A stretch of DNA of 64,000 bases from Candidatus Aldehydirespirator sp. (GCA_965204875.1 OZ242020.1:104992-168991); one strand, 5' to 3'. Positions 16,415 to 59,952 are shown, numbered from the stretch's first letter. Notes: generated from the letters alone by a model not told the origin. Numbers and translations are program-made.

Positions 16415-16498
16415 GCGCCGCCACCGCTAGTCGCCCCCCGACACGCCTGCGCAGATCAGACACGCGCGCCTGCCCCAACCCTCGTAGCGCCGCCACCG

Positions 16499-17554: not shown

Positions 17555-17699
17555 CCCGGCCCGGACCTCCTCTCGGGCTCAAGTGTGCCGCTCATATCGA
17601 TCACGTCGGCCCGGCCCTCCAGTTCAAGTGCGCATCTCATATCGATCACGTCGGCCCGGCCCTCCCCTCGGACTCAAGCGTGCAGCTCACGTCGATCAC
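17547..17699 (-). repeat. Three tandem units of 45-50 bp at the DUF35/thiolase junction
   Basis: The core tcgatca(c/t) recurs at 17548, 17597, 17642 and 17692. Each unit starts with GTGATCGA and ends with GGCCGGGCCGxx on the coding strand. Confidence 0.9.
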
Positions 17700-18271
17700 G
17701 GCGCCGCGGCCCGGCCGATGCGCTCGTAGTCGTCGATCCGCTCGTCCGGCTCGCCCGTGGGCTCCCAGCCGCTTATGTTGGCCGCCGACGTCTCAAGCTC
17801 GTCGTCGGGCCTCCACACGGCCCTGACGCGCATGCCGATGCGCACCTGCTCGGGCGCGATGTTGACCACCAGGCCCATGAAGCCCACGGAGGCGCCGTCG
17901 AGCACGATCCAGGCGCTGCAGTAGGGCGGCTTGAGGTCGGGCCGGCGCTCGATGGGGACGCGGGTCACGTTGAACGACTCGACATAGCCGACGTCGGGCA
18001 GCTCCACCACCTCGTGCGTCGCCGTGCCAGCGAGCGGGCTCACGCCGCGGGGCGGGACGAACACCTGGCCGGTCACTGCGCAACGCTCGCCGAGGATCCG
18101 CTTTTGGGCCATAGCCCGCAGGTAGCGCGACAGCGCCCGGCCCGGTGTGTAGGTATAGGTGAGCCGCAGCGGGGTGCAGACGCTGGACACGAGATCCTCG
18201 GCGGCGAGGGACTCCGGCAGCGTGACCTTCGAGGACAGCGCGGCGGGAGGCGCCAGCGGATCCGGCGCCAT
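17696..18271 (-). CDS. DUF35 OB-fold / Zn-ribbon protein
   Basis: Its size and its position next to thiolase genes fit. The C-terminal OB-fold-like segment (MRVRAVWRPDD) is typical of DUF35 partners of SCP-x thiolases. Confidence 0.65.
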   Translation of the reverse strand: MAPDPLAPPAALSSKVTLPESLAAEDLVSSVCTPLRLTYTYTPGRALSRYLRAMAQKRILGERCAVTGQVFVPPRGVSPLAGTATHEVVELPDVGYVESFNVTRVPIERRPDLKPPYCSAWIVLDGASVGFMGLVVNIAPEQVRIGMRVRAVWRPDDELETSAANISGWEPTGEPDERIDDYERIGRAAAP

Positions 18272-18720
18272 CAGCAGCCGTCCTCGGGAACGGGCTCGAA
18301 GCCGGCGATGTCGGCTATGTGACCCTCACGCTCGTTGCGCCACACCGCCCGCACCCGCATGCCGGTGAACATCTCAGCACGGTCGGCGAGCACGGCGTGA
18401 AGCATCGGGGTGTCGGCGCCATCGAGTCGTATCAGTGCCCAGGCGAACGGGCGCTCGAACGGCTGCTGGGGCCGGGGATCGCCGTTCCAGGCCCAGGTGA
18501 GCACCTCCCCGCCCTGGCCGACCTCCACCATCTCGGTGAGCGGCTCGGCGTTGATCGGGTCGTACTCCAGCGGCGGGCACAGCACCGAGCCGTCGGCTCT
18601 GCGTATGCCGCAGATCACGCCAGCCCGCAGGCCGGCCAGGAACGCGCCGATCACAGGCCCCGTCGAGCGGGTGAACGGGTACTCCAGCACCAGCGGCGCC
18701 TTCAGCGCTTCGGTGGCCAT
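18271..18720 (-). CDS. DUF35 OB-fold protein (second copy)
   Basis: A paralogous pattern (GMRVRAVWRNE). It has a TGATG one-nucleotide overlap with the downstream DUF35 gene. Confidence 0.65.
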   Translation of the reverse strand: MATEALKAPLVLEYPFTRSTGPVIGAFLAGLRAGVICGIRRADGSVLCPPLEYDPINAEPLTEMVEVGQGGEVLTWAWNGDPRPQQPFERPFAWALIRLDGADTPMLHAVLADRAEMFTGMRVRAVWRNEREGHIADIAGFEPVPEDGC

Positions 18721-18814
18721 GCGCCCCCAATGCTAGAGCAACAACCACTCGCCAAGCGCGCTCGGGTCGGGGTGACAGGTTGCCTGCCAGGGTGACGGGT
18801 TGCCGGCACGCGCC

Positions 18815-18844
18815 GGGAGGCCCGGCCGTGCTGCCGGGCCTCCC
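18815..18844 (-). terminator. Perfect 12-bp stem hairpin downstream of SLH paralog 1
   Basis: GGGAGGCCCGGC, a 6-nt loop, then GCCGGGCCTCCC, about 30 nt after the stop. The same module follows all three SLH genes. Confidence 0.6.
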
Positions 18845-18873
18845 GGTCGGTATGCCGTCTTGTGCTGGTGGTG

Positions 18874-21513: not shown

Positions 21514-21700
21514 CAGCCTCTCCTCTCGAACACCGGCGGAACCCCGCCGACCCGAATCGACCGGCACGACCCTAACACCACCCGGCCGGCCACAAGCCAA
21601 CCCCGGCAGCACCAGCGCCGTGCCACCCACCAACATACCCCCCCCCCCCCCCCGCAACGCAACGCAACCACAACTCCTCAAGACCTTGAAGGGCCGGCAA
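21514..21700 (-). promoter_or_regulatory. Conserved leader/promoter module of SLH paralog 1, containing a poly-G tract
   Basis: About 170 nt are conserved upstream of all three SLH genes. The module includes a run of about 16 C on the plus strand (21638..21653) abutting aacata (TATGTT on the coding strand), and a GGCGG-GGTT-CCGCC hairpin just before the RBS. Confidence 0.5.
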
Positions 21701-21780
21701 GCGGAGCGGTGACCTCATCCAAGCGCCTAGCCGGAAGGGAGGGGAAGCAAGTCGGGCGAGCCTAGGCTGCCGGCACGCGC

Positions 21781-21810
21781 GGGAGGCCCGGCTGTGTTGC
21801 CGGGCCTCCC
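21781..21810 (-). terminator. Hairpin downstream of SLH paralog 2
   Basis: It has the same GGGAGGCCCGGC / GCCGGGCCTCCC stem as the hairpin at 18815. Confidence 0.6.
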
Positions 21811-21837
21811 GGTCGGTATGCCGTCTCGTGCTGGTGG

Positions 21838-24381
21838 TTAGCCGGAGGGTTCGCTGAGCCTCACGATGCCGCTCGTGACCGGAGTGTTGTTGAGGCTGTT
21901 GGCGGCGTTGGGAGCGTTGGTGCTTGAGCGGATCAGGAACACGACACTGCCTGTGTCACCGGCGGCGGTGTTGGGGTCGTCCATCCAAACCGAGAAGGTG
22001 AGACTGCCGTCAGCGCCAGTGTAACGGGTTCGCCGCCACTGATGCCAATCAGTGGACTGCTGGATAGACTCGGGTCTAACCTCCAAATTGCTTCCTCCAC
22101 TCCTTTTGATCCGATTCACGTGACCGGCCGACGGAAAGTAGCCGCGGTGAATATTGAACGCAGCGCGGCTCGTGCCATCCGCTCCAACGGTGGTGTCTGC
22201 ACCGTCAGCGTCCTTGAGTTGAACCGTGACAGTCACCTCATCACCATAATCGGCCTCCACGAACACCTTGCTGCTGTTACCGGACGTGAACGACTTGTCC
22301 GTCTTCGCACCCTTGGACGTCACAGTGATGCTCGCGGCCGCCTCGCCCGCGGGAACTGTCGTGGTCACCGCAGAGCCAGAAGTCGTACGAGCCCCCTCCG
22401 TCACAAGCACAACAACCACATGCAACCGCTTGTTCGGCAGACCCGTGAACGCGGGAGAAGCCGGACCGTTGACCTCCTCGACAATATGGAGCACCAGCGT
22501 AGCCCTGTCACCCGCAGCGCTTGGGTTCGGATCCGCCGGCGCTGTAACAGCGAACGAAGCCATCCCCGTGCCATCGGTCTTCAGAGTATGCTGAGCAACG
22601 TTATTCGGAGTTTCAGCGCAGGGGTCGCCGCCCCGAAAACCATCCACATAAGCATGGTCATTAGCGACAACTTTAGAAACAGCCTCAGAAATGCTGGTAC
22701 TACACGGAGAAAGGCCAACTCCACGACCCGTCCCGTTGACCTGCCGAACATCGACCAGCACCGGGTTCGTGCCGTCCACACCGAACGCGGCGCGCTTCAC
22801 CCTGTCACCATCGTTCTCATCGGTGTACAACAACTGCACCGTGAACTGCGACCAATCACCGAACTTCATCGCATAATAGGAAACCTTATTTTGATCAATG
22901 AGCCTGGAACCCGCAACAGTCTCATCATCAGGCGTGATGCTCAACGACTCCGCCGCCACCTGACCCAACGGCATAGTCGTAGTAGTCGTCGTCGTCGTCG
23001 TGGTGGTAGTGGTCGTAGTCGTCGTCGTCGTAGTCGTCGTCGTCGTAGTCGTCGTAGCAGTGGGCGTAGTCGTAGTCGTGGTGGTGGTGGTTGCCGGGGC
23101 GGAACCACCGCCGCCGCCTGCAGGAGCGGCGGGAACAACCGCGGTCGCGGCCGGCACCGTGACAGCCCCAGCCTCCCCAGCGATGCGCAACTCGAAACCG
23201 TCCACACTGCTGTCGTTGTAAGAATCGCCGCGGTCGCCGGACCACACCCACACCGTCACACCACGACCAATCGTCGCAGCGGTCAACTCGTCCAGCCTCA
23301 CATCACCGCCGGCACCGGTCACAGGATCACGCGCGTCGATCGCGCACACCGTCGAAGTGCGGTTCACGCTTCTGACGATCGCGTTGCACCCGCCCCGCAG
23401 ATCAAACGCCCGATAGCGGCGCTGCGAACTCACATAGAACCCATCAACCAACGCACCGGCCACCGGCGCGAACACCGCGTCACGCACCGACACAACCACC
23501 GTGTTGCCGTCAGACTGCGCCGTCACCCCCGCCGGGCGCACCTTCGTGTGCGCCAGCGTGCGCGTGATGAACGACGCCATATTCTTGCGCAGAACGGGAT
23601 CACCAGGCGAGAACAGGCTCGCGCCCGCCGCGCTGCCCCTGGTGATACCAAGCTCATACGCGTAGGAGACCGCCGTGTCCACACCCTCAGGCAGACCGCG
23701 ACGCGCGTCAGCGAAATGATCCAGCGTCGCACCCGAACCCAGGATCAGCTCACCGGCCATAGCGCCGCTCCGATGGAACAGTCCGGGGCTGGCATGGCGC
23801 AGGAACCCGACCAGTGCCACCGCCATCTCGGCCCGCGTGATGCTCGCATCGGGCCTGAACGCCATCCCCGACCCGGCCAAGATGTCATTGCGGGCCAACG
23901 CCATGATCGCGTTGCGGCGCTCCTCGTCCAAATCCGCGATGTCAGCGAAGTCGGCGGCACCCGAGCCGCCTGTCAAATCCAACCCCGCCATCCCAGCAGC
24001 CCTGTGCAAGAACAGCGCCATCTGCGAACGCGTCACCTCAGACCCGGCATCGAACCGCTCAACCGTCCTGCCCCTGGTGATCCCATAGTACGCCAGGCAG
24101 TTGATCGCAGCCTCAGCAACCAACCCCTCAGTGTCCACGAACCCCGCGTCACGCGTGGCATCACCCACACACGCCGAAAACACCGGCAACGCATCGGCCT
24201 CCGCGCCGCTGCTGCCCACAGGCGCAGCCCCAACCGGCGCAGCCACCACAACAGAACCCACCAAACCAACCACCAACAACGCAGACCACCATAAGCGAGG
24301 CTTACCCCCGCCACGGCGGCGGCCAGCTACAACATCAACCAGCCCCCCCCCCGCGGGTGAAGTACGAACCATCAGAGACAT
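21838..24381 (-). CDS. SLH-domain surface protein with poly-Thr linker, paralog 2
   Basis: The architecture and N-terminal half match paralog 1 (MSLMVRTSPAGGG...). The central region of about 200 aa has diverged. The C-terminus is conserved (...YTGADGSLTFS.WMDD...VVFLIRSSTNAP...SEPSG). Confidence 0.8.
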   Translation of the reverse strand: MSLMVRTSPAGGGLVDVVAGRRRGGGKPRLWWSALLVVGLVGSVVVAAPVGAAPVGSSGAEADALPVFSACVGDATRDAGFVDTEGLVAEAAINCLAYYGITRGRTVERFDAGSEVTRSQMALFLHRAAGMAGLDLTGGSGAADFADIADLDEERRNAIMALARNDILAGSGMAFRPDASITRAEMAVALVGFLRHASPGLFHRSGAMAGELILGSGATLDHFADARRGLPEGVDTAVSYAYELGITRGSAAGASLFSPGDPVLRKNMASFITRTLAHTKVRPAGVTAQSDGNTVVVSVRDAVFAPVAGALVDGFYVSSQRRYRAFDLRGGCNAIVRSVNRTSTVCAIDARDPVTGAGGDVRLDELTAATIGRGVTVWVWSGDRGDSYNDSSVDGFELRIAGEAGAVTVPAATAVVPAAPAGGGGGSAPATTTTTTTTTPTATTTTTTTTTTTTTTTTTTTTTTTTTTTMPLGQVAAESLSITPDDETVAGSRLIDQNKVSYYAMKFGDWSQFTVQLLYTDENDGDRVKRAAFGVDGTNPVLVDVRQVNGTGRGVGLSPCSTSISEAVSKVVANDHAYVDGFRGGDPCAETPNNVAQHTLKTDGTGMASFAVTAPADPNPSAAGDRATLVLHIVEEVNGPASPAFTGLPNKRLHVVVVLVTEGARTTSGSAVTTTVPAGEAAASITVTSKGAKTDKSFTSGNSSKVFVEADYGDEVTVTVQLKDADGADTTVGADGTSRAAFNIHRGYFPSAGHVNRIKRSGGSNLEVRPESIQQSTDWHQWRRTRYTGADGSLTFSVWMDDPNTAAGDTGSVVFLIRSSTNAPNAANSLNNTPVTSGIVRLSEPSG

Positions 24382-24560
24382 CTCAGCCTCCCCTTCTCTC
24401 GAACACCGGCAGAACCCCGCCGACCCGAATCGACCGGCACAACCCTAACACCACCCGGCCGGCCACAAGCCAACCCGGCAGCACCAGCGCTACACCAACC
24501 ACCAACATACCCCCCCCCGGGCAACGCAACCCACAACTCCACTGGGTTGGCGAAGCTCGC
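24382..24560 (-). promoter_or_regulatory. Conserved leader/promoter module of SLH paralog 2
   Basis: It is homologous to 21514..21700. Here the poly-C run is only about 9 nt (24510..24518). Confidence 0.5.
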
Positions 24561-24574
24561 CGCTGGTGCCGTGG

Positions 24575-26002
24575 TCAGGCGCCGAGCAGCAGGAGCAGGC
24601 CGATGACGGTGTAGAGGATCATCACCGCCAGCATCGGGTACTGCGAGCGTGTGGCCAGCCGCCGCGGCCAGCGCTCCACGGCCCGGTCGTGGGCGACGGC
24701 CACGCCCAGAACATGGCCTGTCGCGATCGCGGCGGTCTGCGTCCAAGCGATCGTGTCGGTGGAGACCAGCAGGTAGTCCACGCCGTAGGCGGCGGTGCCG
24801 AAGAGATTCCAGCCCCGACCGAAGGGATCCGAGGCCAGGGCGATGATCTGCTGTCCCTCCAGCAGCAGGTAGCTGAAATAGTGCGCGACCGTGTAGGCCG
24901 CCGCAATGGGAACGAGCGAACCGGCGAAGGCGCCGGCCAGTTCCCGCTCGCTGCCGCCGGTGATGGCGGCCATCACCGCGATCGCCGCCCGGTACAGCAC
25001 CAGGACCACCAACACCACGAAGGTCAGGCCCACCGTGTTGAAAGCGGTGAGCCCCCAACCCGTGCGAGTCTCGACCGCCGTCAGCCACAGCGAGCTGCGC
25101 GTGAGGCCGTCGAATGTCGTGGAGCCCAGCACGACGAGGATCAGCGCCGTCGAGCCCCGCTTGACCGGCAGCACGGCCAGGCCGGCCAGCGGCAGCCGCA
25201 TCCTCCAGGCGCCGCTCGGGTGGCGGTACAGCGGGGCGATGGCGGAGAGCTTGGTGAACAGCACGCCGAAGCCCTCGGCGTCGCGCACCCAGCCGCGCCC
25301 GAAGACCGCGGCGCCCACCATCAGCACAGCCGCATAGGCCGCCACGTAGGCGCCGAGAAACCTGGGCTCGGAAGGGTCGTGGTAGGCGAGTTCGATCCAG
25401 ACGAACACGGACAGCGCGGCGACGGCCCACCGCTGGTCGCCGGCGCCCCGGTCGGCCTCGGACACCGGGCGCCGTCTGAGGCGCGCCCAGAGCCGGGCCG
25501 ACGTGTCGGCGACCGTGGCGAAGGGGTCGAGCCCTCGCCAGACATCGCCTGCCGGCACCGACGCGACCTGCAGGCCGACCCAGAAGATGATGAAGATCGC
25601 CACCGGCGCGATGTTGACCGAAGGATTGATGTTGCCCCGGAGCCCGGCATACAGCAGCACGCCGAGGGCCAGCAGTCCCGCCGCGCGTGCGACCGGCACG
25701 AGCGCCCGGCCCGCCGTTTGCAGCGGCCCCGGAAGGTCGCGCCCGGCGGCCGCGGCCCGGAGCCTGGGACGCTCCCAGAACATGCCGAGCGCCACGAACG
25801 ACGCCACCACCACGAACGAGGCGGCCCAGGCCAGCTGCCAGGCAGGCACGGGCAGATCGAGCCGGCCGCCCACACCGTGGGCGGCAGCCCGGCCCGCGGA
25901 CGCCGGCACCATCACCGCGGCCAACGCCGGGACCGCTGCCACACGGGTCCACAGTCGCAGCCGTGGGCTACGGCGGCGAGGCTTCGACGGAGGCTGCGTC
26001 AT
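24575..26002 (-). CDS. Polytopic integral membrane protein of unknown function
   Basis: At least 10 hydrophobic segments and an N-terminal signal-like segment ending in AAAHG. I recognise no catalytic motif. Confidence 0.6.
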   Translation of the reverse strand: MTQPPSKPRRRSPRLRLWTRVAAVPALAAVMVPASAGRAAAHGVGGRLDLPVPAWQLAWAASFVVVASFVALGMFWERPRLRAAAAGRDLPGPLQTAGRALVPVARAAGLLALGVLLYAGLRGNINPSVNIAPVAIFIIFWVGLQVASVPAGDVWRGLDPFATVADTSARLWARLRRRPVSEADRGAGDQRWAVAALSVFVWIELAYHDPSEPRFLGAYVAAYAAVLMVGAAVFGRGWVRDAEGFGVLFTKLSAIAPLYRHPSGAWRMRLPLAGLAVLPVKRGSTALILVVLGSTTFDGLTRSSLWLTAVETRTGWGLTAFNTVGLTFVVLVVLVLYRAAIAVMAAITGGSERELAGAFAGSLVPIAAAYTVAHYFSYLLLEGQQIIALASDPFGRGWNLFGTAAYGVDYLLVSTDTIAWTQTAAIATGHVLGVAVAHDRAVERWPRRLATRSQYPMLAVMILYTVIGLLLLLGA

Positions 26003-26094
26003 CGCAGGGGGATGCTCGTGGAGCCCCGAACGGCAGGGACTTGCGGGGCGGCTCCGAGCCGAGGCGCGCGCTCACTGCGGACGCAGGCTAACGG

Positions 26095-26168
26095 TGGGCG
26101 ATACTGGACTTGAACCAGTGGCCTCTGCCGTGTGAAGGCAGCGCTCTAGCCGTCTGAGCTAATCGCCC
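26095..26168 (-). tRNA. tRNA-Val (anticodon CAC)
   Basis: The reverse complement GGGCGATTAGCTCAG...CTGCC-TTCACAC-GGCAG...GGTTCAAGTCC...ATCGCCCA folds as a cloverleaf. CCA is not encoded. Confidence 0.85.
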
Positions 26169-26197
26169 GCGACCGGTGAGACTACCACCGGCCCGAG

Positions 26198-27220
26198 TCA
26201 CATCGCTGCGACTCGAAGGGCCCGCTCCATCACATGGCGGCTGCCGAGCAGTCGGCGCAGCTCGTTCTCCAGGCCGGCTATCGGGTACAGGTTCTGCGGC
26301 GCGCGGGCGTCCTTGTGAGGCTGGCTGGCGTAGCGCGGCAGCAGTGCCGACACAGCGTCGGCGCGGCACACCGCGTCCGCGAGCGCACTCGGCGACGCCA
26401 TCTCGCAGCGCACGATGCCCGACCATGGATGCGCCGCGACAGCCGGCAGGCGCAGGTACCAAGACCAGCGAGCGAAGCCCGAGCCGCCGATGAAGAACAG
26501 CGGGGTCCGCTGGCCGGCCCGCAGCGTCGAGATCACGCGCTGCTCGCGGTCCGGCAGGTACTGGACGTGCTGGGTCTTCACGTACCCGACGCCGGCCGGT
26601 GCGCCGCGGCCCCGGATCGGCCCGTCGAAGACCACCAGTTCCGCTCCCTCCGGCGGGATGATCTGCGCAGCGGTTGGATCGAGCACCGCATCGCCTTCAT
26701 CCGTTCCCTCCGGCGGGACGATCCGCGTCTCCAGCGCGGTCATCTGGTCATGGATCGCCCGGTAGAGGTCGTCGGGCCCGTCGGCCGCGCAGGGAACCAG
26801 CTCGTAGGTGCCGTGGCGGGTGGCGATGGGGACGGTGGCATGGGACGCCCTGGCATAGAGCGCCCGGAACACCCTCGACCCCACCACCCGAGCCGCGTCC
26901 GGGTCACAGCGGACCGCACCGGCGGCGACCGACGCGCAGACGCCGGGGCGGACCCCGTCCCCGTCGGTGATCCAGATGCGGGCGTCTATGCGCCGCACGC
27001 CGTCCACGAACACGACGGACTCCACAGGCTCAGCGTGAGGCGCGGGGTCGACCGCCGACCACCGGCCCTCGGCGCGCTCGGAGTACAGGACGACATCGCC
27101 GGTCGCCTCCTCAAGGTGCTCCGAGTCGGCGGCCAAGCCGTACTCGGGCGCCCAGCTCTCAACCGTGAACCTCAACCGCGCCTCCGGATCACGCGTGCCA
27201 CCCTCTCGCAGCGCAGGCAC
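26198..27220 (-). CDS. nurA: NurA-like nuclease (putative)
   Basis: The protein is 340 aa and sits last in the herA-sbcD-sbcC operon, as nurA does in archaea. It has an N-terminal VFVDGVRRID segment that resembles the catalytic Asp motif of NurA. The assignment rests mainly on context. Confidence 0.5.
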   Translation of the reverse strand: MPALREGGTRDPEARLRFTVESWAPEYGLAADSEHLEEATGDVVLYSERAEGRWSAVDPAPHAEPVESVVFVDGVRRIDARIWITDGDGVRPGVCASVAAGAVRCDPDAARVVGSRVFRALYARASHATVPIATRHGTYELVPCAADGPDDLYRAIHDQMTALETRIVPPEGTDEGDAVLDPTAAQIIPPEGAELVVFDGPIRGRGAPAGVGYVKTQHVQYLPDREQRVISTLRAGQRTPLFFIGGSGFARWSWYLRLPAVAAHPWSGIVRCEMASPSALADAVCRADAVSALLPRYASQPHKDARAPQNLYPIAGLENELRRLLGSRHVMERALRVAAM

Positions 27221-27354
27221 CCCGGCCGTTCAACGGCGGCCGGCCCTCGTGCCGCCGCTTGCGCCACCCTCCCGCAGCGCAGGCGCCCCAGTCAACCGCT
27301 GTGAACCGCACCTCCCGGGCACGGCTCGGCCAAGACACAGCCCTCTTCCCCCCA

Positions 27355-30201
27355 CTATGCCTCCACGCGCTCGATCATCGAGGTGTCAGGCCCCTTGGAC
27401 ACCACGAAGCGCACGGGCATCTCGTCGCCCAGCTCGCTGATGTGGGTGACGATGCACACCATCCGGCCGGACTCGGCCAGGTCGCCGATGGCGCCGGCCA
27501 CGACGCCCAGGGCGTCGGGGTCGAGCGTGCCGAAGCCCTCGTCGAGGAACAGCGAACCGAGCGCCGGACTCCCCGCGGAGGCCGTCTCGCCCCCGCCGTC
27601 GCCGAGCGCCAGAGCCAGAGCGAGGCTCGCCAGGAACGTCTCGCCGCCCGAGAGGGTCTTGGCCCCGCGCACCTCGTCCGCGTTCTGGTGGTCGCAGATC
27701 CCGAAGTCGGGGTCGTCGGGCACAAAGGAGTACTTGCCGTCCGACAGCTCCAGCAGCCGCTCGTTGGCCCGCTCGATCAAGTCCCCGACCGCGCCCACAA
27801 GGAGCCACCGCTCGAACCCGTCGGCCCGCAGCAACCGGCCGAGCTCCGCGGCTACCTCTTCGTCGGCGCGCAACTTGCCGACGCGTGCTTCTAGCTGCTG
27901 ACGCCGACGTAGCTCCTCGGTAGCAGTCTTGTGAGACATCTCGGCATTTGTGACGGCCACCGCCATCTCGCTCACGAAGCGACTCGAGTCGTCGCCGGGC
28001 TCGAAGTGGGCCGAGCACAGGGTTCGTGCGGACGCGATCAGCTCACGCTCGCGGCCCTGCGCGTCGCGCGCCCGGCGCTCGGCCGCCTCTGACTGCCTGG
28101 CGACCGCGGCCAGCGTCTCGATGGCCCAGGCGGCCAGGTCCTCCCAGTCCTGCAGCAACGACGCCTCAGGTGCCGGTGGCGACAGTGGAGCCAACTCGTC
28201 GCGCCTGGCGCCGTAGTCGCGCCGCGCTCGCTGTTCGTCGGCCTCTAGAGCCTCTAGCGCCTTGACCGCTTGCTGCTTGCGCTCATGGGCAGTCTGTTCT
28301 GCGGCCTCGGCCTTCTGCCGGGCGGCGGCCAGAGCCCCGGCCCGCTCGATGTCCGCCTCAAGCTGGGCTACCTCGGGCTCTCCGGCCAAACGCTCTTCGA
28401 GTTCCTGGCACTGCCGCTGGCAGCTGTCCCGATCTGCCTCGACCTTCGCCTTCTCGACCTCGGCATCCTGCTCCGCCCTAAGGCAGTCCCGCGTCTCGGC
28501 AGCATCTCGCAGGTCGCGCTCGGCCTGCTCCGCGGCCTGCCGCGCAGCGCTGCACCGCTCCGCTTCGGCAGCAAGCTCGTCGGCCTGTGATTCGAGACGG
28601 TCCAGCTCGACCCCGTCCGGCTGGCCCTGAAGCTCGTGCTGCAGCGTCTTCTCTCGCGCCGATAGCTGCTGCAACTGTGACGAGAGGCGTGCCGAGGCGC
28701 TGCGCAACTCAACAAGGGCGTCGGCCGCGCGTTCAACTTCGGACTGGGCGCGGCGGTGGTCAACATCGAGCCTGGCAAGCTCAGCGTCCGGGTCGTGTTC
28801 GGGAAGTTCCACGACCGTCCGGCGGCACACGGGGCACGGTTCACCCTCTCGCAACTGCGTAACCAGTCCCTCGGCCTGCTTGAGCGCACGAGCGAGATCG
28901 AGCCGCTCCACTGCCTTCGACAAGACCCCCTTGGCCGCCGACTGCTCGGCCTGCGCCGACTGCTCGGCCGCAACAGCACGTTCATGCTCAACTGCACGAT
29001 CGGCCACCTGCGGTGCCAGCTCTTCCAGTTCGGCCCGCAACGCGCGCACCCGCTCGATCTGGCCCCGATCCGGACCGCCGGCTGCGGAGTCGAGCGCCTG
29101 CTCAGCCGCACGACGCGCCGCAGCCGCTGCGCCCTCAGCCTCAGCCAGTCGCTCACGCACGACTTCGGCGGCCGCGACCGCTTCCCCGGCGACACGCTCC
29201 GCCTCGCCGGCGCGCTCCTGCAGGGAATCCAGCCGGCCCCGCTCTGCGTCGAGACGCCCGTGATCATCGAGAAGCCTCCGACACTGCCCCACGCTGGGAC
29301 CCTCGTCTGCCTCACGGCGCGCCCCGGTCGCGGCATCGCGCGCCTCCTCGTATTTCGCCGCGGCGCCGTCGCTTGCCTCACGAGCCGCCTGAAGCTCGGC
29401 GTCGAGCCGTTGCACGGCGCCTGGCACCGCCTTGCTACGGGCGAGCACCTTCCCAGCGGCGGCGAGGCGCGACATCTCGCCCTCGGCCGCCTTGCGATCA
29501 GCAACAGCCACCTCGAGCTGCTCCATCCGGGCTTCGAGCTCTGCCTGGGCGGCGCGTGCGGCCTCGGCAAGCCCGGCAAGCTCGGTGACCCGTTCAGCGG
29601 TCGGCGCCTCACGCTCGAGTTCGGGCCGCAGCGCCGCGATCTGATCCCGGGCCGTGGCGGCCCGCCTGCGAGCCTCGGCACCCACGCGGTCGTAGATGCC
29701 CAGGCCGATGAGGTGTTTCAGCAGTTCCTGGCGGTCGGCGGCCTTGTCGTGCAGGAACTCCGCGAAACGGCCCTGCGGCAGCACCACGGTCTTGGTGAAG
29801 CGGTCGAAGTCGAGGCCCAGGAGCCCCTCAACGGCGGGGCCCATCTCGCGGGCGCTGCCGGCCAGGGTCTGCTCGCCTCGCTCCAGGCGGGCCTCCCTGG
29901 TGGAGGCGCCGGCGGCGGTCCGGCGAACCACGCGCGTCGCCGTGTACGCCTCGCCGCCCGCCTCGAAGTCGAGGGAGACCCGCGCCTCCGCCGCCAGCTG
30001 GTTGATGACCGGTGCCACGGCCCGGGCGTCGTCGTAGCGGGCCACGGTTCCGAACAGGGCGAAGGTGATGCCGTCGATGATCGTGGTCTTGCCGGATCCG
30101 GTAGGCCCCACGAGGGCTGCCTGCTCCACATCGCTGAAGTCCACCGCGGTGTCGGAGCGGAAGCTGCCGAAGCCCCTCAGGCTCAACTTCAAGGGCCTCA
30201 T
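27355..30201 (-). CDS. sbcC: SbcC / Rad50-like SMC ATPase
   Basis: Walker A GPTGSGKTT, long coiled coils, a central zinc hook CPVC, signature LSGGETFLASLALALAL, Walker B LFLDEGFGTLD. Confidence 0.9.
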   Translation of the reverse strand: MRPLKLSLRGFGSFRSDTAVDFSDVEQAALVGPTGSGKTTIIDGITFALFGTVARYDDARAVAPVINQLAAEARVSLDFEAGGEAYTATRVVRRTAAGASTREARLERGEQTLAGSAREMGPAVEGLLGLDFDRFTKTVVLPQGRFAEFLHDKAADRQELLKHLIGLGIYDRVGAEARRRAATARDQIAALRPELEREAPTAERVTELAGLAEAARAAQAELEARMEQLEVAVADRKAAEGEMSRLAAAGKVLARSKAVPGAVQRLDAELQAAREASDGAAAKYEEARDAATGARREADEGPSVGQCRRLLDDHGRLDAERGRLDSLQERAGEAERVAGEAVAAAEVVRERLAEAEGAAAAARRAAEQALDSAAGGPDRGQIERVRALRAELEELAPQVADRAVEHERAVAAEQSAQAEQSAAKGVLSKAVERLDLARALKQAEGLVTQLREGEPCPVCRRTVVELPEHDPDAELARLDVDHRRAQSEVERAADALVELRSASARLSSQLQQLSAREKTLQHELQGQPDGVELDRLESQADELAAEAERCSAARQAAEQAERDLRDAAETRDCLRAEQDAEVEKAKVEADRDSCQRQCQELEERLAGEPEVAQLEADIERAGALAAARQKAEAAEQTAHERKQQAVKALEALEADEQRARRDYGARRDELAPLSPPAPEASLLQDWEDLAAWAIETLAAVARQSEAAERRARDAQGRERELIASARTLCSAHFEPGDDSSRFVSEMAVAVTNAEMSHKTATEELRRRQQLEARVGKLRADEEVAAELGRLLRADGFERWLLVGAVGDLIERANERLLELSDGKYSFVPDDPDFGICDHQNADEVRGAKTLSGGETFLASLALALALGDGGGETASAGSPALGSLFLDEGFGTLDPDALGVVAGAIGDLAESGRMVCIVTHISELGDEMPVRFVVSKGPDTSMIERVEA

Positions 30202-30349
30202 CGCGGCGCCTCCGCGCCCCCGGCACGCCTGCGAGCGAGTGCCGCAGGAACGCTCCGAACCGGGTCAGGCCTCATCGCGGCGCCTCCGCGCCCCCGGCAC
30301 GCCTGCGAGCGAGTGCCGCAGGAACGCTCCGAACCGGGTCGGGCCTCAT
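30196..30349 (-). repeat. Two tandem 74-bp units between sbcD and sbcC
   Basis: cat (ATG) recurs at 30199, 30273 and 30347. The two units are nearly identical, differing only at about 30267/30341 (a/g). Confidence 0.9.
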
Positions 30350-31527
30350 CGCAGCGTCTCTGCCCGATCGGCCTCGTGCTGTTCCTCCAGCAGCGCGACG
30401 AACAGCGACCTCACCCGCCCGTCCGCGATGTTGCGCTCGGCCAGGTACTCGTCGAAGAGCTCGACGCTGCCGCGCCCGGATCGCGCGGACCGGCGGCGCC
30501 GAGGTTGCGAGTCGTCCTCGACGCGCACGTCCACCACGCTCTCACCGCGTGCGCCCAGCGCCTCGCGCACCTCTCCGGCAAGGCCGGCCCGCCGCGGCTC
30601 CCGCACGATCACCCTCAGCCACGGGTCTCCCTCAAGCTCCGCGGCGGCCCCGGCGACCTCCGCCAGCGTGCCCGACAGCGTGCGCAGCGACCGGCCGCCC
30701 CCCAGCCGCAGCGGCGTCACCGCCGGGGGCAGGCCGGCCTCAATCTCGACCAGGTTCACCTGCTTGTGGTGCTGCTCCTCGCCGAAGTCGAGCTGCAGGG
30801 GCGACCCGCAATAGTGGATCTGGCCAGGCCCGGCGATCCTCTGGGGCCGGTGCACGTGGCCGAGTGCCACATATCCCGCCGTGGCCGGAAAGACCTGGGC
30901 GCTCAGCGCGTACTCGTCGACGAAGTGCACGGCCCGCTCGCCGCCCCCGAGCCTGCCGCCGTGCACGAAGGCGTGCGCCATCAACACGTTGACCGTGCCG
31001 GGCTCGAAGCCCCCGGCCAGCACCTCGATCAGCAGCCGCATGCGCTCGGCATAGGCCTGCGCGTGCTCGTAGGCCTCGGAGTCCATCAGGTCCCTGGCGC
31101 GGACGATGCCGCGCCGTGACACGAACGGCAGCATGGCCACGCAGGCGTCCTCGCCCCGGCGCGTCCGCAAGCGCAGCACGCCGCCGTCGCCGGGCCTGCT
31201 CGGCTCGGCAACCACATGCACGCGCCCGGCGGCCTCGAACACGGGCGCCACGGCTGCGAGCTTGCGACCGCTGTCGTGGTTGCCGGCGATCACCGCCACC
31301 TGTGCGCCTGTGCCGGCCAGGTCCAGCAGCGCCCGGTACACGATCCTCTCCGCCTCGGCCGACGGCGCGGAGGTCTCGAACACGTCGCCCGCCACGAGCA
31401 CCAGGTCTACCGAGTGCTCACCGGCCAGGCGGGCGATCTCGGCCAGCACCGCCTGATGCTCGCCGGCGCGGCTTCGCCCCCGGATCGTCTTGCCGACGTG
31501 CCAGTCGCTGGTGTGCAGCAGTTTCAT
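30346..31527 (-). CDS. sbcD: SbcD / Mre11-like nuclease
   Basis: MKLLHTSDWHVGK...LVAGDVFE...IAGNHD phosphoesterase motifs. I prefer the start at 31527 (MKLLHTSDWH) over the listed 31608. Confidence 0.9.
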   Translation of the reverse strand: MKLLHTSDWHVGKTIRGRSRAGEHQAVLAEIARLAGEHSVDLVLVAGDVFETSAPSAEAERIVYRALLDLAGTGAQVAVIAGNHDSGRKLAAVAPVFEAAGRVHVVAEPSRPGDGGVLRLRTRRGEDACVAMLPFVSRRGIVRARDLMDSEAYEHAQAYAERMRLLIEVLAGGFEPGTVNVLMAHAFVHGGRLGGGERAVHFVDEYALSAQVFPATAGYVALGHVHRPQRIAGPGQIHYCGSPLQLDFGEEQHHKQVNLVEIEAGLPPAVTPLRLGGGRSLRTLSGTLAEVAGAAAELEGDPWLRVIVREPRRAGLAGEVREALGARGESVVDVRVEDDSQPRRRRSARSGRGSVELFDEYLAERNIADGRVRSLFVALLEEQHEADRAETLR

Positions 31528-31582
31528 CGCCGCACCCGCCGCAGCCGGGCAACCACGCCGGCGCGCCGCGCCTGTTGCAGCC

Positions 31583-33346
31583 TCACGCCAGGCCCTCGAA
31601 AGGGTCATCGGGCTGTGCGGGGCCGCCGGCGCCGGGAGGCAGGGAGGGATCGACCTCGGCTGAGCGGGTGGCCCAGGCCGGGAACGGGAACTCCACCAGC
31701 AGCGGCACCGGCAGGCGGGGCTGGGACACGTACATCGAGCCGGGCTTGAGGATCGTGGCCCGCTGGCGCTGCACGCCGGGCAGGAACCCGTACTGCTCGC
31801 GGCCCGCCTCGGCGCTGTCGAGGCGCCCGACCACGCGCACGGCGCTGTTGGCCACCACCCGCCGCTCCACCTCGCTGGCCGTCTGCTGGGCGCCGATCAG
31901 GATGATCCCGAGGCTGCGTCCCCGCTCGGCCACGTCCAGCAGGATCTCCTTGATGGGGCTGCTGCCGTCGCGGGGCGCGTACTTGTTGAGCTCGTCGAGC
32001 ACCACGAACTGCAGCGGCTTGGAGGTTCCGCTGCTCTCCTTGGCCTCGAAGGCCTGGCGCAGCACGACGCCGACCACGAAACGCTTGGCCCGGTCGTGGA
32101 GCTGATGTATGTCCACCACGGTGAGCTGGTTGGAGTCCAGGTCGATCGCGTGGGCCGGGGCGTCCGCCACGTCGGCGCGTATCAGATGGTGGAGGTGGCG
32201 CACCGAGGCGTGCAACCGGCGAACGAAGGCGTTGATCGTGCCGGGGCCGATGGCCCGCCCGCTCCAGCGCGGGTCCGGCGCCTGGTCGGGATCGTCGGGG
32301 ATCAGCTGCCGCTCGATGGCGTTCACAAGCTCGCCGAAGCGCCGGATCGTGCTCTTGCCGATGCGCACCGACCCGTCCGCCGCCGCGGTCCTATCGGCGC
32401 ACCGGGCCAGCTGCGCCGCCACCGACTGCACGACGATGGTGTACTGCTGGCGCTCGTCCTGGGCGTCCGCGAACAGGAAGGGCAGCAGCTGCTGCGAGCA
32501 GAAGTCGGCGATGCTCCAGAAGTAGGGGCGCACCCCGTAGTGCCGGGCGCCGGTGGCGGGGGTGGCGTTGGGGTCGTTGGGGCGGGGCGGCGCCAGGACG
32601 CCGACCGAGGTGAAGGGAGCGGGCTGGAGCCCCAGCGCCGCGTAGCGCTGTCGCTGGTCGGGTTCGAGGCGGGCGTTGGGGTGGTCCAGGAAGAGCAGGT
32701 CCTCGCCCTTGACGTTGAAGATCAGGCCCTTGGTGTGCATGGCCTCGCCCGCGAGCACACCCGAGTTGAACAGCGCGTACAGCAGGAACGTGGCGTAGCT
32801 GGTCTTGGTGGCGACGCCGGAGATGCCGCTGATGTTGATGTGGGCGCCCTTGGTGCCGTCGATGAAGTCGAGGTCGAGGTAGATGGGCTCGTCGTAGCGG
32901 CTCAGGCCCGCAGGAAGGCGGCGATCCGGCTCGACCTCATCGAAGTCCAGGGCCGCGTCGCGCTCCTCGCCGGCGGCGAGGCGCACCTCCGAACCGGGCA
33001 GCGGCGGCACGAACGTCTCCGGCACCACCCTGGTGAGCTGCACCTGCGCGGCCTCGCTCACCTCGGCCGGCAGCACGCCGTCGGCGATCAGGAAGACGTC
33101 GCTGTCGAAGCGGGCGCCCTCGTGGCGGGCCCGCACCTGGCTGACGACGCCGTAGAGGCAGATCCGGTCATCGTTGGGCAGCACCCGGTCTATCGCCACC
33201 ACGTCATCGAGCTGCAGGTGCGAGCCGGGTGCCACGGCCACCCAGAACTCGAGCGGCGTGGCGTCGTCGGTGCCGAGCACCCGGCCCACCACCTCGCTCA
33301 CGGCAACCTCTCCATCAATGTGCTCTTCATCAAGATGAAGGTACAA
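31583..33346 (-). CDS. herA: HerA-like (DUF87, FtsK/HerA superfamily) ATPase
   Basis: An N-terminal barrel-like region, a deviant Walker A GISGVATKTS, Walker B FVVLDELNKY, and a C-terminal LGIILIGAQQTASEV segment typical of HerA. Confidence 0.75.
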   Translation of the reverse strand: MYLHLDEEHIDGEVAVSEVVGRVLGTDDATPLEFWVAVAPGSHLQLDDVVAIDRVLPNDDRICLYGVVSQVRARHEGARFDSDVFLIADGVLPAEVSEAAQVQLTRVVPETFVPPLPGSEVRLAAGEERDAALDFDEVEPDRRLPAGLSRYDEPIYLDLDFIDGTKGAHINISGISGVATKTSYATFLLYALFNSGVLAGEAMHTKGLIFNVKGEDLLFLDHPNARLEPDQRQRYAALGLQPAPFTSVGVLAPPRPNDPNATPATGARHYGVRPYFWSIADFCSQQLLPFLFADAQDERQQYTIVVQSVAAQLARCADRTAAADGSVRIGKSTIRRFGELVNAIERQLIPDDPDQAPDPRWSGRAIGPGTINAFVRRLHASVRHLHHLIRADVADAPAHAIDLDSNQLTVVDIHQLHDRAKRFVVGVVLRQAFEAKESSGTSKPLQFVVLDELNKYAPRDGSSPIKEILLDVAERGRSLGIILIGAQQTASEVERRVVANSAVRVVGRLDSAEAGREQYGFLPGVQRQRATILKPGSMYVSQPRLPVPLLVEFPFPAWATRSAEVDPSLPPGAGGPAQPDDPFEGLA

Positions 33347-33426
33347 CAGGCGTGTGACAGCGGTTCTCGCACCGGCCCCGTGCGGCGCTGAGACCCTCAG
33401 GCGGGCTCGGGCAGGCTGCAGGGGCG

Positions 33427-59919: not shown

Positions 59920-59952
59920 GGTCGGTGTGCCGTCTCGGGTGTTTGATGGCGT

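What the first reader, a model, noticed from the sequence alone, without database searches (positions are those of the whole stretch)
26198..33346. herA - sbcD(mre11) - sbcC(rad50) - nurA-like operon in the archaeal gene order
Four co-directional genes encode four proteins. The first is a HerA/DUF87 ATPase. The second is an Mre11-type phosphoesterase. The third is a Rad50-type SMC ATPase with a CPVC zinc hook. The fourth is a 340-aa protein whose position and N-terminal DG motif fit NurA. The order herA-mre11-rad50-nurA is the well-known DNA-end-resection operon of thermophilic archaea. Bacterial SbcCD normally stands alone, and bacterial HerA-NurA pairs are usually separate from it. HerA-family ATPases are also recruited into anti-phage systems. 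The operon could therefore be a full resection machine in bacteria or a defence module.
Basis: partly seen in the sequence, partly recalled or inferred. Interest (0 to 1): 0.55.

Follow-up and report, generated by a model that had tools for sequence, protein, structure and literature searches.

The report
Bacterial herA-sbcD-sbcC-nurA DNA-end-resection operon
An Acidimicrobiia bacterium carries four intact, co-directional DNA-repair genes (HerA motor, SbcD/SbcC end-processing nuclease, NurA nuclease) in the order known from heat-loving archaea, behind a motif shaped like a DNA-damage promoter. The same four-gene cassette recurs in most related bacteria sampled, which argues that the two machines work together in bacteria too.

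Summary
Four minus-strand genes encode the following:
- A bacterial-type HerA. It gives E = 1.5e-149 against the Deinococcus radiodurans HerA of PDB 7f6d.
- SbcD, which passes the curated TIGR00619 cut-off.
- SbcC, with a CPVC zinc hook.
- A bacterial-type NurA. It gives E = 5.7e-27 against 7f6d NurA, and its AlphaFold model finds the NurA fold first.

All catalytic motifs I looked for are present.

The order herA-sbcD-sbcC-nurA holds in 55 of 58 species-representative loci that have enough downstream DNA. Most are Acidimicrobiia, but some records are labelled Acidobacteriota, Gammaproteobacteria, Chloroflexota or Bacteroidota.

A motif, TGTC[AG]-N11-TAnnnT, lies just upstream of herA in the window and in 26 of the 79 loci. 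It has the shape of the actinobacterial PafBC/RecA-NDp damage promoter as I recall it. Background is 0.005 matches per 250 nt.

My best reading is a damage-inducible, four-component double-strand-break resection machine. I found no support for a defence module.

The parts are all known families. In the papers I could search, a bacterial herA-sbcDC linkage is mentioned only once, for Oceanithermus. I rate this a new member of a known kind, of moderate interest.

The parts
33338..33359 (-). Promoter-like motif TGTCACACGCCTGTTGTACCTT (TGTC[AG]-N11-TAnnnT). This is the shape of the actinobacterial RecA-NDp/PafBC damage promoter, and it lies 36 nt upstream of the herA GTG.
   Evidence: It is the only match in the 64-kb window on either strand. 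The same pattern lies within 250 nt upstream of herA in 26 of 79 related loci. Across all loci there are 47 matches in 2.54 Mb in total, none on the reverse complement of the upstream regions, and shuffles average 0.3. A weight matrix built from those sites puts 39 of 74 upstream regions above a 1% false-positive threshold. The consensus of the known motif is from my memory.
31583..33301 (-). herA: bacterial-type HerA hexameric DNA translocase/ATPase, 572 aa.
   Evidence: E = 1.5e-149 against D. radiodurans HerA 7f6d_B. Walker A GISGVATKT, NVKGED and Walker B VVLDE are present, and they match drHerA K175/T176, D220 and D487/E488. At least 7998 homologues were found, and the best 120 are 73-100% identical.
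30346..31527 (-). sbcD: Mre11-type phosphoesterase, 393 aa.
   Evidence: TIGR00619 scores 182 bits, above its cut-off, and Pfam Metallophos matches. E. coli SbcD gives E = 3e-36. Patterns for motifs I-V (DWHVG, GDVF, GNHD, MAH, GHVH) are all present.
30194..30360 (-). A 74-bp tandem repeat (2.3 copies) fills the sbcD-sbcC gap. Each copy starts with the ATGA stop/start overlap. Read on the minus strand, this gives two 25-codon mini-ORFs (30272..30349 and 30198..30275) chained between the sbcD stop and the sbcC ATG.
   Evidence: The repeat is absent from the closest relative L081, where sbcD and sbcC overlap by 4 nt. The unit occurs nowhere else in the window or in the loci.
27355..30201 (-). 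sbcC: Rad50-type SMC ATPase, 948 aa.
   Evidence: Pfam AAA_23, SMC_N and SbcC_Walker_B match. TIGR00618 scores 227 bits, below its cut-off of 478. E. coli SbcC gives E = 5e-31. Walker A, the Q-loop, the CPVC hook (residue 456), LSGGE, Walker B/D-loop and the H-loop are present.
27176..27354 (-). The 179-nt spacer between sbcC and nurA. It holds one copy (27263..27289) of a pair of 27-nt direct repeats. The other copy (27197..27223) extends 22 nt into the spacer from the start of nurA.
   Evidence: Folding is no stronger than in shuffles (z = +1.3). No terminator-like site falls in any gap. In relatives this gap has a median of about 14 nt. In L081 a DUF222-HNH gene sits at this position.
26198..27175 (-). 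nurA: bacterial-type NurA nuclease with an RNase-H-like fold, 325 aa.
   Evidence: E = 5.7e-27 against 7f6d_H. The model has pLDDT 86.3 and pTM 0.85. Foldseek finds 7f6d_G (E = 4.9e-19), then 1zup, then 2ygk. D58-G59, E149, D184-G185-P186 and the core of HKDxRAPQNL (H287, K288, R291 to L296) are invariant in 30 homologues.

Best explanation
This is a chromosomal, probably DNA-damage-inducible operon. It encodes a complete four-protein machine for processing DNA double-strand-break ends.

**Inferred steps.**
1. Transcription starts at a RecA-NDp/PafBC-type promoter just upstream of herA. It runs through herA, sbcD, sbcC and nurA and ends before or at the tRNA-Val gene.
2. SbcC2-SbcD2, the bacterial Mre11-Rad50, binds ends. 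It opens or cleans blocked or hairpinned termini by ATP-dependent endo- and 3'-5' exonuclease action.
3. A HerA hexamer capped by a NurA dimer then loads on the cleaned end. It pumps duplex DNA through its pore into NurA, where the strands are split and the 5' strand is degraded. This leaves a 3' tail for RecA.

**Shown here.**
- The identity and intact catalytic motifs of all four proteins.
- The conserved interleaved gene order across many species.
- The enrichment of the promoter-like motif upstream of herA.

**Taken from the literature.** The activities of D. radiodurans HerA-NurA, of E. coli SbcCD and of the archaeal four-protein system.

**Inferred only.** Co-transcription, damage induction, and physical or functional hand-over between SbcCD and HerA-NurA in this organism.
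For: **Protein identity.** Catalytic residues are invariant in 30 NurA and 13 HerA homologues.

**Conserved order.**
- herA-sbcD-sbcC-nurA lie on one strand in 41 tight and 13 insert-bearing loci, plus L025. That is 55 of the 58 loci with at least 6.2 kb downstream.
- sbcD follows herA in 12 further loci that are truncated.
- Median gaps are 39, 21 and 14 nt.
- Stop/start overlaps occur in relatives: sbcD/sbcC in L081 and herA/sbcD (GTGA) in L025.
- The known obligate partners herA and nurA are kept at the two ends with sbcDC between them. This is hard to explain without co-expression.

**The motif.**
- 26 of the 47 matches in 2.54 Mb sit directly upstream of herA.
- Where an insertion splits herA from sbcD, sbcD has its own copy (L016, L048, L052, L057). 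L070 has one in the intact herA-sbcD gap.
- Other copies precede a RecQ-like helicase and DUF222-HNH genes.
- No locus labelled outside Actinomycetota has the motif upstream of herA.

**Local context.**
- No terminator-like sites or unusually stable hairpins lie in the gaps.
- The neighbours are housekeeping genes: ddl, murF, an amidase and tRNA-Val.

**Literature.**
- drHerA-NurA resects DNA ends (PMC9960219), and mutants show reduced recombination (PMC12977600).
- The four archaeal genes form one operon and are co-transcribed in Sulfolobus acidocaldarius.
Against: - No expression data exist, so co-transcription and induction are not shown.
- The window's own gaps (55, 144 and 179 nt) are larger than in relatives, so internal promoters cannot be excluded.
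- The RecA-NDp consensus is recalled from memory. The held papers name the motif but do not print it. Whether this genome encodes PafBC was not tested.
- Only about half of the related loci carry a recognisable motif.
- A 2026 study of Thermococcus HerA-NurA found that both strands are degraded, and it questions the resection role in archaea (PMC12977600).
- The SbcC score is below the TIGR00618 cut-off, so this is a diverged SbcC.
- A few close HerA relatives (L060, L079) have no sbcDC or nurA within 10 kb.
Confidence: 0.72

Rival explanations
1. The four genes form an anti-phage or anti-plasmid defence module. HerA-NurA, helped by the SMC-type SbcC, destroys linear foreign DNA rather than repairing the chromosome.
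For: - HerA ATPases are partners of the defence nucleases Sir2 and DUF4297. The 2026 Thermococcus study proposes an antiviral role for archaeal HerA-NurA (PMC12977600).
- PADLOC gives weak HerA (35.7 bits), mad8 and LmuB (64 bits) hits.
- Foldseek finds a weak similarity of the NurA model to 8wfd_G, a chain of the TdpAB complex (E = 6e-4).
- The cassette occurs in several phyla, and flanks are not conserved beyond close relatives. Both are typical of mobile modules.
Against: - The PADLOC hits cover only the generic ATPase cores, and NurA has none.
- HerA is 73-87% identical among its 119 closest non-identical homologues, an unusually slow rate for a defence gene.
- The cassette sits among murF, ddl, an amidase and a tRNA gene, not in a defence island.
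- The upstream motif is shared with a RecQ-like helicase and fits a damage regulon.
- The closest solved homologue is the D. radiodurans complex, whose loss affects recombination and repair.
Confidence: 0.1
2. Two independent systems share a transcription unit or damage regulon without cooperating. SbcCD would handle hairpin or blocked-end cleavage, and HerA-NurA would serve another DNA transaction.
For: - In Deinococcus and Thermus, herA-nurA and sbcCD are unlinked. A connection between them was called an open question (PMC4663267; PMC5448004).
- Insertions of unrelated genes are tolerated between the parts in 13 loci.
Against: - The interleaved order, with sbcDC between the obligate partners herA and nurA, is kept in 55 of 58 loci and across phyla.
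- When the operon is split, sbcD acquires the same promoter motif.
- In Sulfolobus, Mre11 interacts physically with HerA (PMC2288612 title).
Confidence: 0.14
3. HerA acts mainly as an FtsK-like DNA pump in chromosome or plasmid segregation, with NurA and SbcCD as accessory nucleases.
For: [quoted passage not shown] HerA has been proposed as the archaeal FtsK counterpart (Iyer et al. 2004, cited).
Against: - The FtsK-substitute argument rests on archaea lacking FtsK, whereas bacteria normally have it. [quoted passage not shown]
- The damage-promoter-like motif and the linkage to end-processing nucleases fit repair better.
Confidence: 0.03

Closest known systems
Deinococcus radiodurans HerA-NurA complex (PDB 7f6d; PMC9960219)
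   Same: HerA aligns over its full length (E = 1.5e-149) with identical Walker A, Walker B and catalytic motifs. NurA has the same fold and the same conserved acidic and His motifs. Both are 'bacterial-type' proteins.
   Different: As I recall, in Deinococcus nurA and herA are adjacent and sbcCD lies elsewhere. One search confirms only that any sbcCD connection was an open question. Here sbcD-sbcC are inserted between herA and nurA, and nurA comes last.
Archaeal herA-mre11-rad50-nurA operon (Sulfolobus, Pyrococcus)
   Same: The same four functions in the same gene order. The archaeal genes form one operon (PMC4351679) and are co-transcribed in S. acidocaldarius (PMC2288612).
   Different: - The proteins are bacterial-type. 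SbcD and SbcC score far higher on bacterial than on archaeal models: 182 versus 44 bits, and 227 versus 80 bits.
- No archaeal HerA is found by sequence at E <= 10.
- Archaeal NurA is found only by fold (2ygk, TM 0.43).
- This is therefore not a recent archaeal transfer.
Oceanithermus profundus hepA(herA)-sbcD-sbcC (PMC5448004)
   Same: This is the only bacterial herA-sbcDC linkage I found in the searchable literature. There too, sbcD and sbcC lie downstream of herA.
   Different: It is a single organism of the Thermales. In Thermus nurA lies upstream of hepA, and I infer the same for Oceanithermus. The authors interpreted the linkage as a local recruitment. Here nurA follows sbcC, and the arrangement is the norm in a large clade.
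E. coli SbcCD (PDB 6s6v)
   Same: It is the best solved match for both subunits (E = 3e-36 and 5e-31). The nuclease and ABC-ATPase motifs and the zinc hook are all present.
   Different: As I recall, E. coli sbcDC is a stand-alone two-gene operon. This SbcC is shorter (948 versus 1048 aa) and falls below the TIGR00618 cut-off.
Mycobacterial PafBC / RecA-NDp DNA-damage regulon (PMC6789036, PMC8223512)
   Same: A non-palindromic motif of the same shape lies close upstream of the first gene. It also precedes a RecQ-like helicase gene and DUF222-HNH genes in relatives. The RecA-NDp promoter is reported to extend to other Actinobacteria.
   Different: The consensus here is TGTCAC-nn-CCC-nnn-G-n-TAC-nn-TCG. 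Neither regulator presence nor induction was tested in Acidimicrobiia. As far as I recall, herA and nurA are not part of the described mycobacterial regulon.
HerA-based defence systems (Sir2-HerA, DUF4297-HerA, TdpAB)
   Same: They share a HerA-family hexameric ATPase paired with a nuclease.
   Different: Only marginal similarity: 8xau HerA gives E = 0.028, chain 8wfd_G of TdpAB gives E = 6e-4 with TM 0.36, and the best PADLOC hit is 36 bits. There is no Sir2 or DUF4297 partner.

Membership tests
Bacterial-type HerA (D. radiodurans HerA family) | Full-length homology covering the HAS-barrel, RecA-like ATPase and helix-bundle domains | tested here: met
   phmmer gives E = 1.5e-149 in two stretches, covering query residues 17-317 and 329-567.
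Bacterial-type HerA (D. radiodurans HerA family) | Walker A Lys/Thr, the catalytic acidic residue after beta-2, and Walker B Asp-Glu | tested here: met
   GISGVATKT, NVKGED and VVLDE are present and invariant in 13 homologues. They correspond to drHerA K175/T176, D220 and D487/E488.
Bacterial-type HerA (D. radiodurans HerA family) | Pfam or NCBIfam HerA/DUF87 model match | tested here: not met
   No Pfam family matches at E <= 0.1, and the only NCBIfam hits are weak (best CedB, 13.6 bits). This is a gap in the models rather than evidence against membership, given.
NurA nuclease | RNase-H-like NurA fold | tested here: met
   The model has pLDDT 86.3. The Foldseek top hits are 7f6d_G (TM 0.68), 1zup (TM 0.63) and 2ygk.
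NurA nuclease | Conserved catalytic acidic and His residues (a D...E...D...H-type set) | tested here: met
   D58, E149, D184 and H287 are invariant in 30 homologues, as are K288 and R291 to L296 of the HKDxRAPQNL motif. Their assignment to catalytic roles is by analogy and was not checked residue by residue against a structure.
NurA nuclease | Pfam PF09376 above the gathering score | tested here: not met
   The score is 18.7 bits against a cut-off of 21. Several homologues do carry PF09376.
NurA nuclease | Bacterial N-terminal beta-strand (dimerisation) and pin-like motif | tested here: inconclusive
   The N-terminus MRFTVESWAPEYG has invariant F3, E6, W8, P10 and Y12, and the model has a strand at residues 2-6. 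The alignment to drNurA starts only at residue 51. drNurA features are.
HerA6-NurA2 complex | Physical 6:2 complex with interdependent activities | not testable with these tools
   No complex prediction or biochemistry is available here.
SbcCD / Mre11-Rad50 | SbcD phosphoesterase motifs I-V plus the capping domain | tested here: met
   Patterns for motifs I-V are all present. TIGR00619 scores above its cut-off. The alignment to E. coli SbcD covers residues 1-295.
SbcCD / Mre11-Rad50 | SbcC split ABC-ATPase head and CxxC zinc hook | tested here: met
   Walker A, the Q-loop, LSGGE, Walker B and the H-loop are present, with CPVC at residue 456 of 948. Pfam domains match. The TIGR00618 score is below its cut-off. 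I did not test the intervening ~650 residues for coiled-coil character.
Four-gene herA-mre11-rad50-nurA resection operon | The four genes contiguous, on one strand, in this order | tested here: met
   Seen in the window and in 55 of 58 informative related loci.
Four-gene herA-mre11-rad50-nurA resection operon | Co-transcription and induction by DNA damage | not testable with these tools
   Support is indirect only: small or overlapping junctions in relatives, no terminator-like sites in the gaps, and a single upstream damage-promoter-like motif.
PafBC / RecA-NDp regulon | RecA-NDp-shaped motif close upstream of the first gene | tested here: met
   The motif is at 33338..33359, and its enrichment is shown. 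The reference consensus is from memory, and the regulator was not looked for.
Known anti-phage systems (PADLOC models; HerA-Sir2, HerA-DUF4297, Lamassu) | Full-length match to the system's signature proteins, and presence of the effector partner | tested here: not met
   Only partial ATPase-core hits were found, none for NurA, and there is no Sir2, DUF4297 or LmuA-type gene.

The most novel reading that the evidence does not exclude
The cassette is a self-contained, horizontally transferable four-protein resection pathway. In it, bacterial SbcCD physically hands cleaned ends to HerA-NurA. It is switched on by the LexA-independent (PafBC-type) damage response in Actinomycetota. It serves as the main double-strand-break resection route of Acidimicrobiia, in place of or alongside RecBCD/AdnAB. 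If so, the Mre11-Rad50 to HerA-NurA partnership would be an ancient or repeatedly selected arrangement shared by archaea and many bacteria, not an archaeal thermophile speciality.
Probability: 0.35. Interest if true: 0.6.

Novelty: new member of a known kind. Interest (0 to 1): 0.45.

Why it matters
**The open question.**
- The role of HerA-NurA is again under debate. A 2026 study doubts end resection in archaea and suggests antiviral activity.
- The Deinococcus field has left open whether bacterial SbcCD and HerA-NurA are connected.

**What this locus adds.**
- A large bacterial clade keeps all four genes interleaved in one unit. At least 564 GTDB species genomes carry a HerA relative, and 55 of the 58 informative loci among the closest 79 hold the full cassette.
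- That unit often lies behind a DNA-damage-type promoter.
- This is comparative-genomic evidence for functional coupling and for a repair role.
- It offers mesophilic bacterial proteins and cultured genera (Aquihabitans, Rhabdothermincola, Egicoccus) in which to test the idea.

**Annotation gap.** Pfam and NCBIfam do not recognise this HerA, and Pfam scores this NurA below its cut-off. Where sources name the closest relatives at all, they mostly call them 'ATP-binding protein' and 'hypothetical protein', though JGI names some 'DNA helicase HerA-like ATPase'.

Tried and rejected
HerA gave no hit and NurA scored below its cut-off. I rejected this as evidence against the calls, because PDB sequence search and fold search are decisive.
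2. **LexA SOS box.** A search for TCGAAC-N4-GTTCGA with up to 2 mismatches found nothing near the operon.
3. **Sigma-70 promoters and intrinsic terminators.** None lie in the gaps. The two terminator-like hits are inside coding sequence and are at chance level.
4. **Structured RNA in the two long gaps.** Folding is no better than in shuffles. Rfam found only tRNAs.
5. **Flank synteny.** None of seven window neighbours gave a syntenic match in the 79 species-representative loci (one weak surface-protein hit only). Synteny exists only in the very close relative L081.
6. **A HerA-SbcD fusion ORF in L025.** It looked like 'Rosetta-stone' evidence for interaction. It is a 1-nt indel: the second copy has a normal herA stop overlapping the sbcD GTG.
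7. **Extra genes inside the operon in 13 loci.** They are heterogeneous, so they are not a fifth component. They include a Mutator transposase, oxidoreductases, an Eco57I-type methylase plus an HSDR_N protein, and DUF222-HNH.
8. **The 74-bp repeat as a dispersed element.** It occurs only here.
9. **Papers not held.** Cheng 2015 (J Bacteriol), Fujii 2018 and Iyer 2004 could not be read. An earlier description of the bacterial four-gene cluster in those papers cannot be excluded.


Full report
**Observation.** The window is about 70% G+C. Four long minus-strand ORFs lie at 31583..33346, 30346..31608, 27355..30201 and 26198..27220.

**Protein identities.**
- **ORF 1 (HerA).** It has no Pfam hit and only noise in NCBIfam. 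Against PDB sequences it matches the HerA chain of 7f6d at E = 1.5e-149 over almost its whole length. 7f6d is the reconstruction of the Deinococcus radiodurans HerA-NurA complex (title).
- **ORF 2 (SbcD).** TIGR00619 scores 182 bits against a cut-off of 77.65. The family match begins at residue 28, which is ATG 31527. E. coli SbcD gives E = 3e-36.
- **ORF 3 (SbcC).** The Pfam domains AAA_23, SMC_N and SbcC_Walker_B match. TIGR00618 scores 227 bits, below its cut-off of 478.5. E. coli SbcC gives E = 5e-31.
- **ORF 4 (NurA).** Pfam NurA scores only 18.7 bits, below its cut-off of 21. The 7f6d NurA chain matches at E = 5.7e-27, and Thermotoga TM1739 matches at E = 8e-4.
- **NurA model.** An AlphaFold2 model built from 30 homologues has pLDDT 86.3 and pTM 0.85. 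Its best PDB fold matches are D. radiodurans NurA (E = 4.9e-19, TM 0.68), then TM1739, then Sulfolobus NurA.

**Catalytic integrity.** The sequence patterns I searched for are all present:
- HerA: Walker A GISGVATKT, NVKGED and Walker B VVLDE. These correspond to drHerA K175/T176, D220 and D487/E488.
- SbcD: phosphoesterase motifs I-V.
- SbcC: Walker A, the Q-loop, the CPVC hook at residue 456, LSGGE, Walker B/D-loop and the H-loop.
- NurA: FVDG, E149, FDGP and HKDARAPQNL. D58, G59, E149, D184-G185-P186, H287, K288 and R291 to L296 are invariant in 30 homologues.

**Gene limits.**
- The exact database proteins are 572 aa (HerA, P0121) and 325 aa (NurA, P0001).
- The nurA start at TTG 27175 is homologous to the nurA start in the closest relative.
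- The herA start at GTG 33301 is preceded by GGAGAGG. The upstream TTG at 33346 lies inside the promoter-like motif.
- The operon therefore runs from 33301 to 26198, with junction gaps of 55, 144 and 179 nt.
- A tRNA-Val(CAC) gene follows nurA by 29 nt.

**Source and family size.** Homologues are labelled Acidimicrobiaceae, Acidimicrobiales or Acidimicrobiia. The window belongs to a 3.05-Mb Acidimicrobiia-type genome. HerA is strikingly conserved: the best 120 hits are 73-100% identical, and at least 7998 hits were found. NurA is less conserved at 51-67%, with at least 4691 hits.

**Survey of the gene order.**
- A HerA alignment (A1) was scanned against one genome per GTDB species. It matched at least 564 stretches that encode relatives, and the best 79 loci were kept.
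- I ran tblastn and HMM searches with the four window proteins against these loci.
- herA-sbcD-sbcC-nurA lie on one strand with all gaps under 500 nt in 41 loci. They lie in the same order with a larger insertion somewhere in 13 loci.
- L025 also holds the full set, twice. That makes 55 of the 58 loci with at least 6.2 kb downstream of herA.
- Twelve truncated loci still show sbcD directly after herA.
- The exceptions are L060 and L079 (nothing within 10 kb), L049 (no clear nurA), and four short loci.
- Median gaps, measured from alignment edges, are 39, 21 and 14 nt.
- The cassette is not confined to Actinomycetota. It occurs in records labelled Acidobacteriota (L061), Gammaproteobacteria (L066, and the 5.8-Mb chromosome L078), Dehalococcoidia (the 3.5-Mb chromosome L076) and Saprospiraceae (L073). 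HerA identity in these is 60-63%, no lower than in distant Acidimicrobiia. This points to transfer of the cassette as a unit.
- Flanking genes are not conserved among these species.
- The close relative L081 (HerA 86% identical) does share the context ddl-murF-amidase-herA-sbcD-sbcC. It has a 4-nt sbcD/sbcC overlap and a DUF222-HNH gene inserted before nurA.
- The inserted genes elsewhere are heterogeneous, so they are not a fifth component.

**Regulation.**
- The sequence TGTCACACGCCTGTTGTACCTT lies upstream of herA at 33338..33359. It is the only match to TGTC[AG]-N11-TAnnnT in the 64-kb window. As I recall it, this is the shape of the actinobacterial RecA-NDp promoter (tTGTCRgtg-8 nt-TAnnnT).
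- PafBC uses the RecA-NDp promoter to activate the LexA-independent damage response. The held papers describe this motif but do not print it.
- A single match in the window means little on its own. However, the pattern occurs within 250 nt upstream of herA in 26 of the 79 loci, and also in L081 and in the window (28 of the 76 upstream regions examined).
- It never occurs on the reverse complement of those regions, and shuffles average 0.3.
- Over all loci there are only 47 matches in 2.54 Mb, and 26 of them are at this one position.
- A weight matrix built from these sites finds near-matches in 13 further loci at a 1% false-positive threshold, giving 39 of 74.
- Several of the remaining matches are telling. 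Where an insertion has separated herA from sbcD, a copy of the motif sits directly in front of sbcD (L016, L048, L052, L057). L070 has one in the intact herA-sbcD gap.
- Other copies sit in front of a RecQ-like DEAD/Helicase_C protein (L032) and DUF222-HNH genes (L074, L080).
- The loci labelled outside Actinomycetota lack the motif upstream of herA.
- No LexA box lies near the operon. No terminator-like sites or unusually stable hairpins lie in the gaps.

**Interpretation.**
- The best explanation is a damage-inducible operon for a four-component end-resection machine. SbcCD would clean or open ends, and HerA6-NurA2 would translocate along the duplex and digest the 5' strand.
- This follows what has been shown for D. 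radiodurans HerA-NurA (PMC9960219) and for the archaeal four-protein system (PMC4351679, PMC2288612).
- The proteins are bacterial-type throughout. They score much better on the bacterial than on the archaeal SbcD and SbcC models. No archaeal HerA is detectable by sequence, and archaeal NurA is found only by fold.
- The shared order with archaea is therefore ancient or convergent, not a recent transfer.
- The defence reading is not supported. PADLOC hits are weak and partial, the gene context is housekeeping, HerA evolves very slowly, and the motif fits a damage regulon. It cannot be excluded outright, given the current debate (PMC12977600).

**What is known.**
- The searchable literature describes bacterial HerA-NurA mainly in Deinococcus and Thermus, as unlinked to sbcCD.
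- The one linkage reported is in Oceanithermus profundus, where sbcD and sbcC follow hepA (herA). The authors interpreted this as a local recruitment (PMC5448004).
- I found no description of the herA-sbcD-sbcC-nurA order in bacteria, of its breadth, or of a RecA-NDp-type promoter in front of it.
- I therefore class the locus as a new member of a known kind, with a modest new comparative insight.

**Local peculiarities of this genome.** The operon carries three small tandem duplications. The first two explain why its gaps are larger than in relatives.
- The sbcD-sbcC gap is a 74-bp unit repeated 2.3 times. Each unit begins with the ancestral ATGA stop/start overlap, so two 25-codon mini-ORFs are chained between sbcD and sbcC. 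It is absent from L081 and from all other loci.
- Two 27-nt direct repeats lie 66 nt apart at the sbcC-nurA junction.
- A 60-nt duplication inside nurA encodes IVPPEGT/IIPPEGA in a low-confidence loop.

Noticed in passing
window 30194..30360 (minus strand): A 74-bp tandem repeat (2.3 copies, 96% matches) fills the sbcD-sbcC gap. Each copy starts with the ATGA stop/start overlap. This gives two identical 25-codon mini-ORFs (MRPDPVRSVPAALARRRAGGAEAPR) chained by ATGA overlaps between sbcD and sbcC. They might preserve translational coupling. The repeat is present in the 99%-identical contig L001 but absent from L081 and all other loci.
   Followed up: partly
window 27197..27223 and 27263..27289; window 26640..26667 and 26700..26727: There are two more short direct duplications in the same operon. 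One is a pair of 27-nt repeats 66 nt apart at the sbcC-nurA junction. The other is a 60-nt-spaced duplication inside nurA, encoding IVPPEGT/IIPPEGA in a loop that is poorly predicted (pLDDT about 50-65).
   Followed up: partly
window 26093..26168 (minus strand): A tRNA-Val(CAC) gene lies 29 nt after the nurA stop on the same strand and marks the 3' end of the cluster. Three more tRNA genes (Val-GAC, Cys, Gly) lie at 55.7-58.7 kb.
   Followed up: no
L001 1..1716 versus window about 31840: A 17.5-kb, 3x-coverage metagenome contig is 99.1% identical to window 16493..31840. It then breaks inside herA and continues with an unrelated, oppositely oriented 365-aa ORF. I read that ORF as a flavoprotein-like oxidoreductase from its sequence only. 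This is either a strain in which herA is disrupted or a chimeric assembly.
   Followed up: partly
L081 15935..17704; L009 15766..20272; L016 10972..15078: Unrelated genes sit inside the operon in some relatives. L081 has a DUF222+HNH gene between sbcC and nurA. L009 has an Eco57I-type methylase plus an HSDR_N protein at the same site. L016 has a Mutator-family transposase between herA and sbcD. The intergenic junctions appear to be tolerated insertion sites.
   Followed up: partly
L025 1800..16820: Two inverted copies of the whole four-gene cassette lie head to head. They are about 97% identical in the 499-nt junction region compared, with many third-codon-position differences. One copy has a 1-nt indel that creates a spurious HerA-SbcD fusion ORF. 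This is either a real inverted duplication or a chimeric long-read assembly of two strains.
   Followed up: partly
L032 about 8961 (minus); L074 3820 and 3876; L080 7063; L030 9050 (minus): The same TGTC[AG]-N11-TAnnnT motif precedes several other genes: a RecQ-like helicase, DUF222-HNH genes, and an AbiEi_4/DUF559 protein. In most of these the distance to the start codon is short (7-41 nt), and in L032 and before sbcD in L070 it is only 7 nt. This suggests an Acidimicrobiia damage regulon with short 5' leaders.
   Followed up: partly
window 18874..21681, 21838..24381 and about 59850..62600 (minus strand): There are paralogous large secreted proteins (935 and 847 aa) with long poly-threonine linkers. 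Their DNA is about 84% identical, and a third related copy lies near 60-62 kb.
   Followed up: no
window 31583..33301 and 26198..27175: There is an annotation gap. Neither Pfam-A nor NCBIfam recognises this HerA family, and Pfam NurA misses this protein. Where sources name the closest relatives, NCBI calls them 'ATP-binding protein' and 'hypothetical protein', and JGI calls some 'DNA helicase HerA-like ATPase'. The families have at least 7998 and at least 4691 members at 90% clustering.
   Followed up: yes
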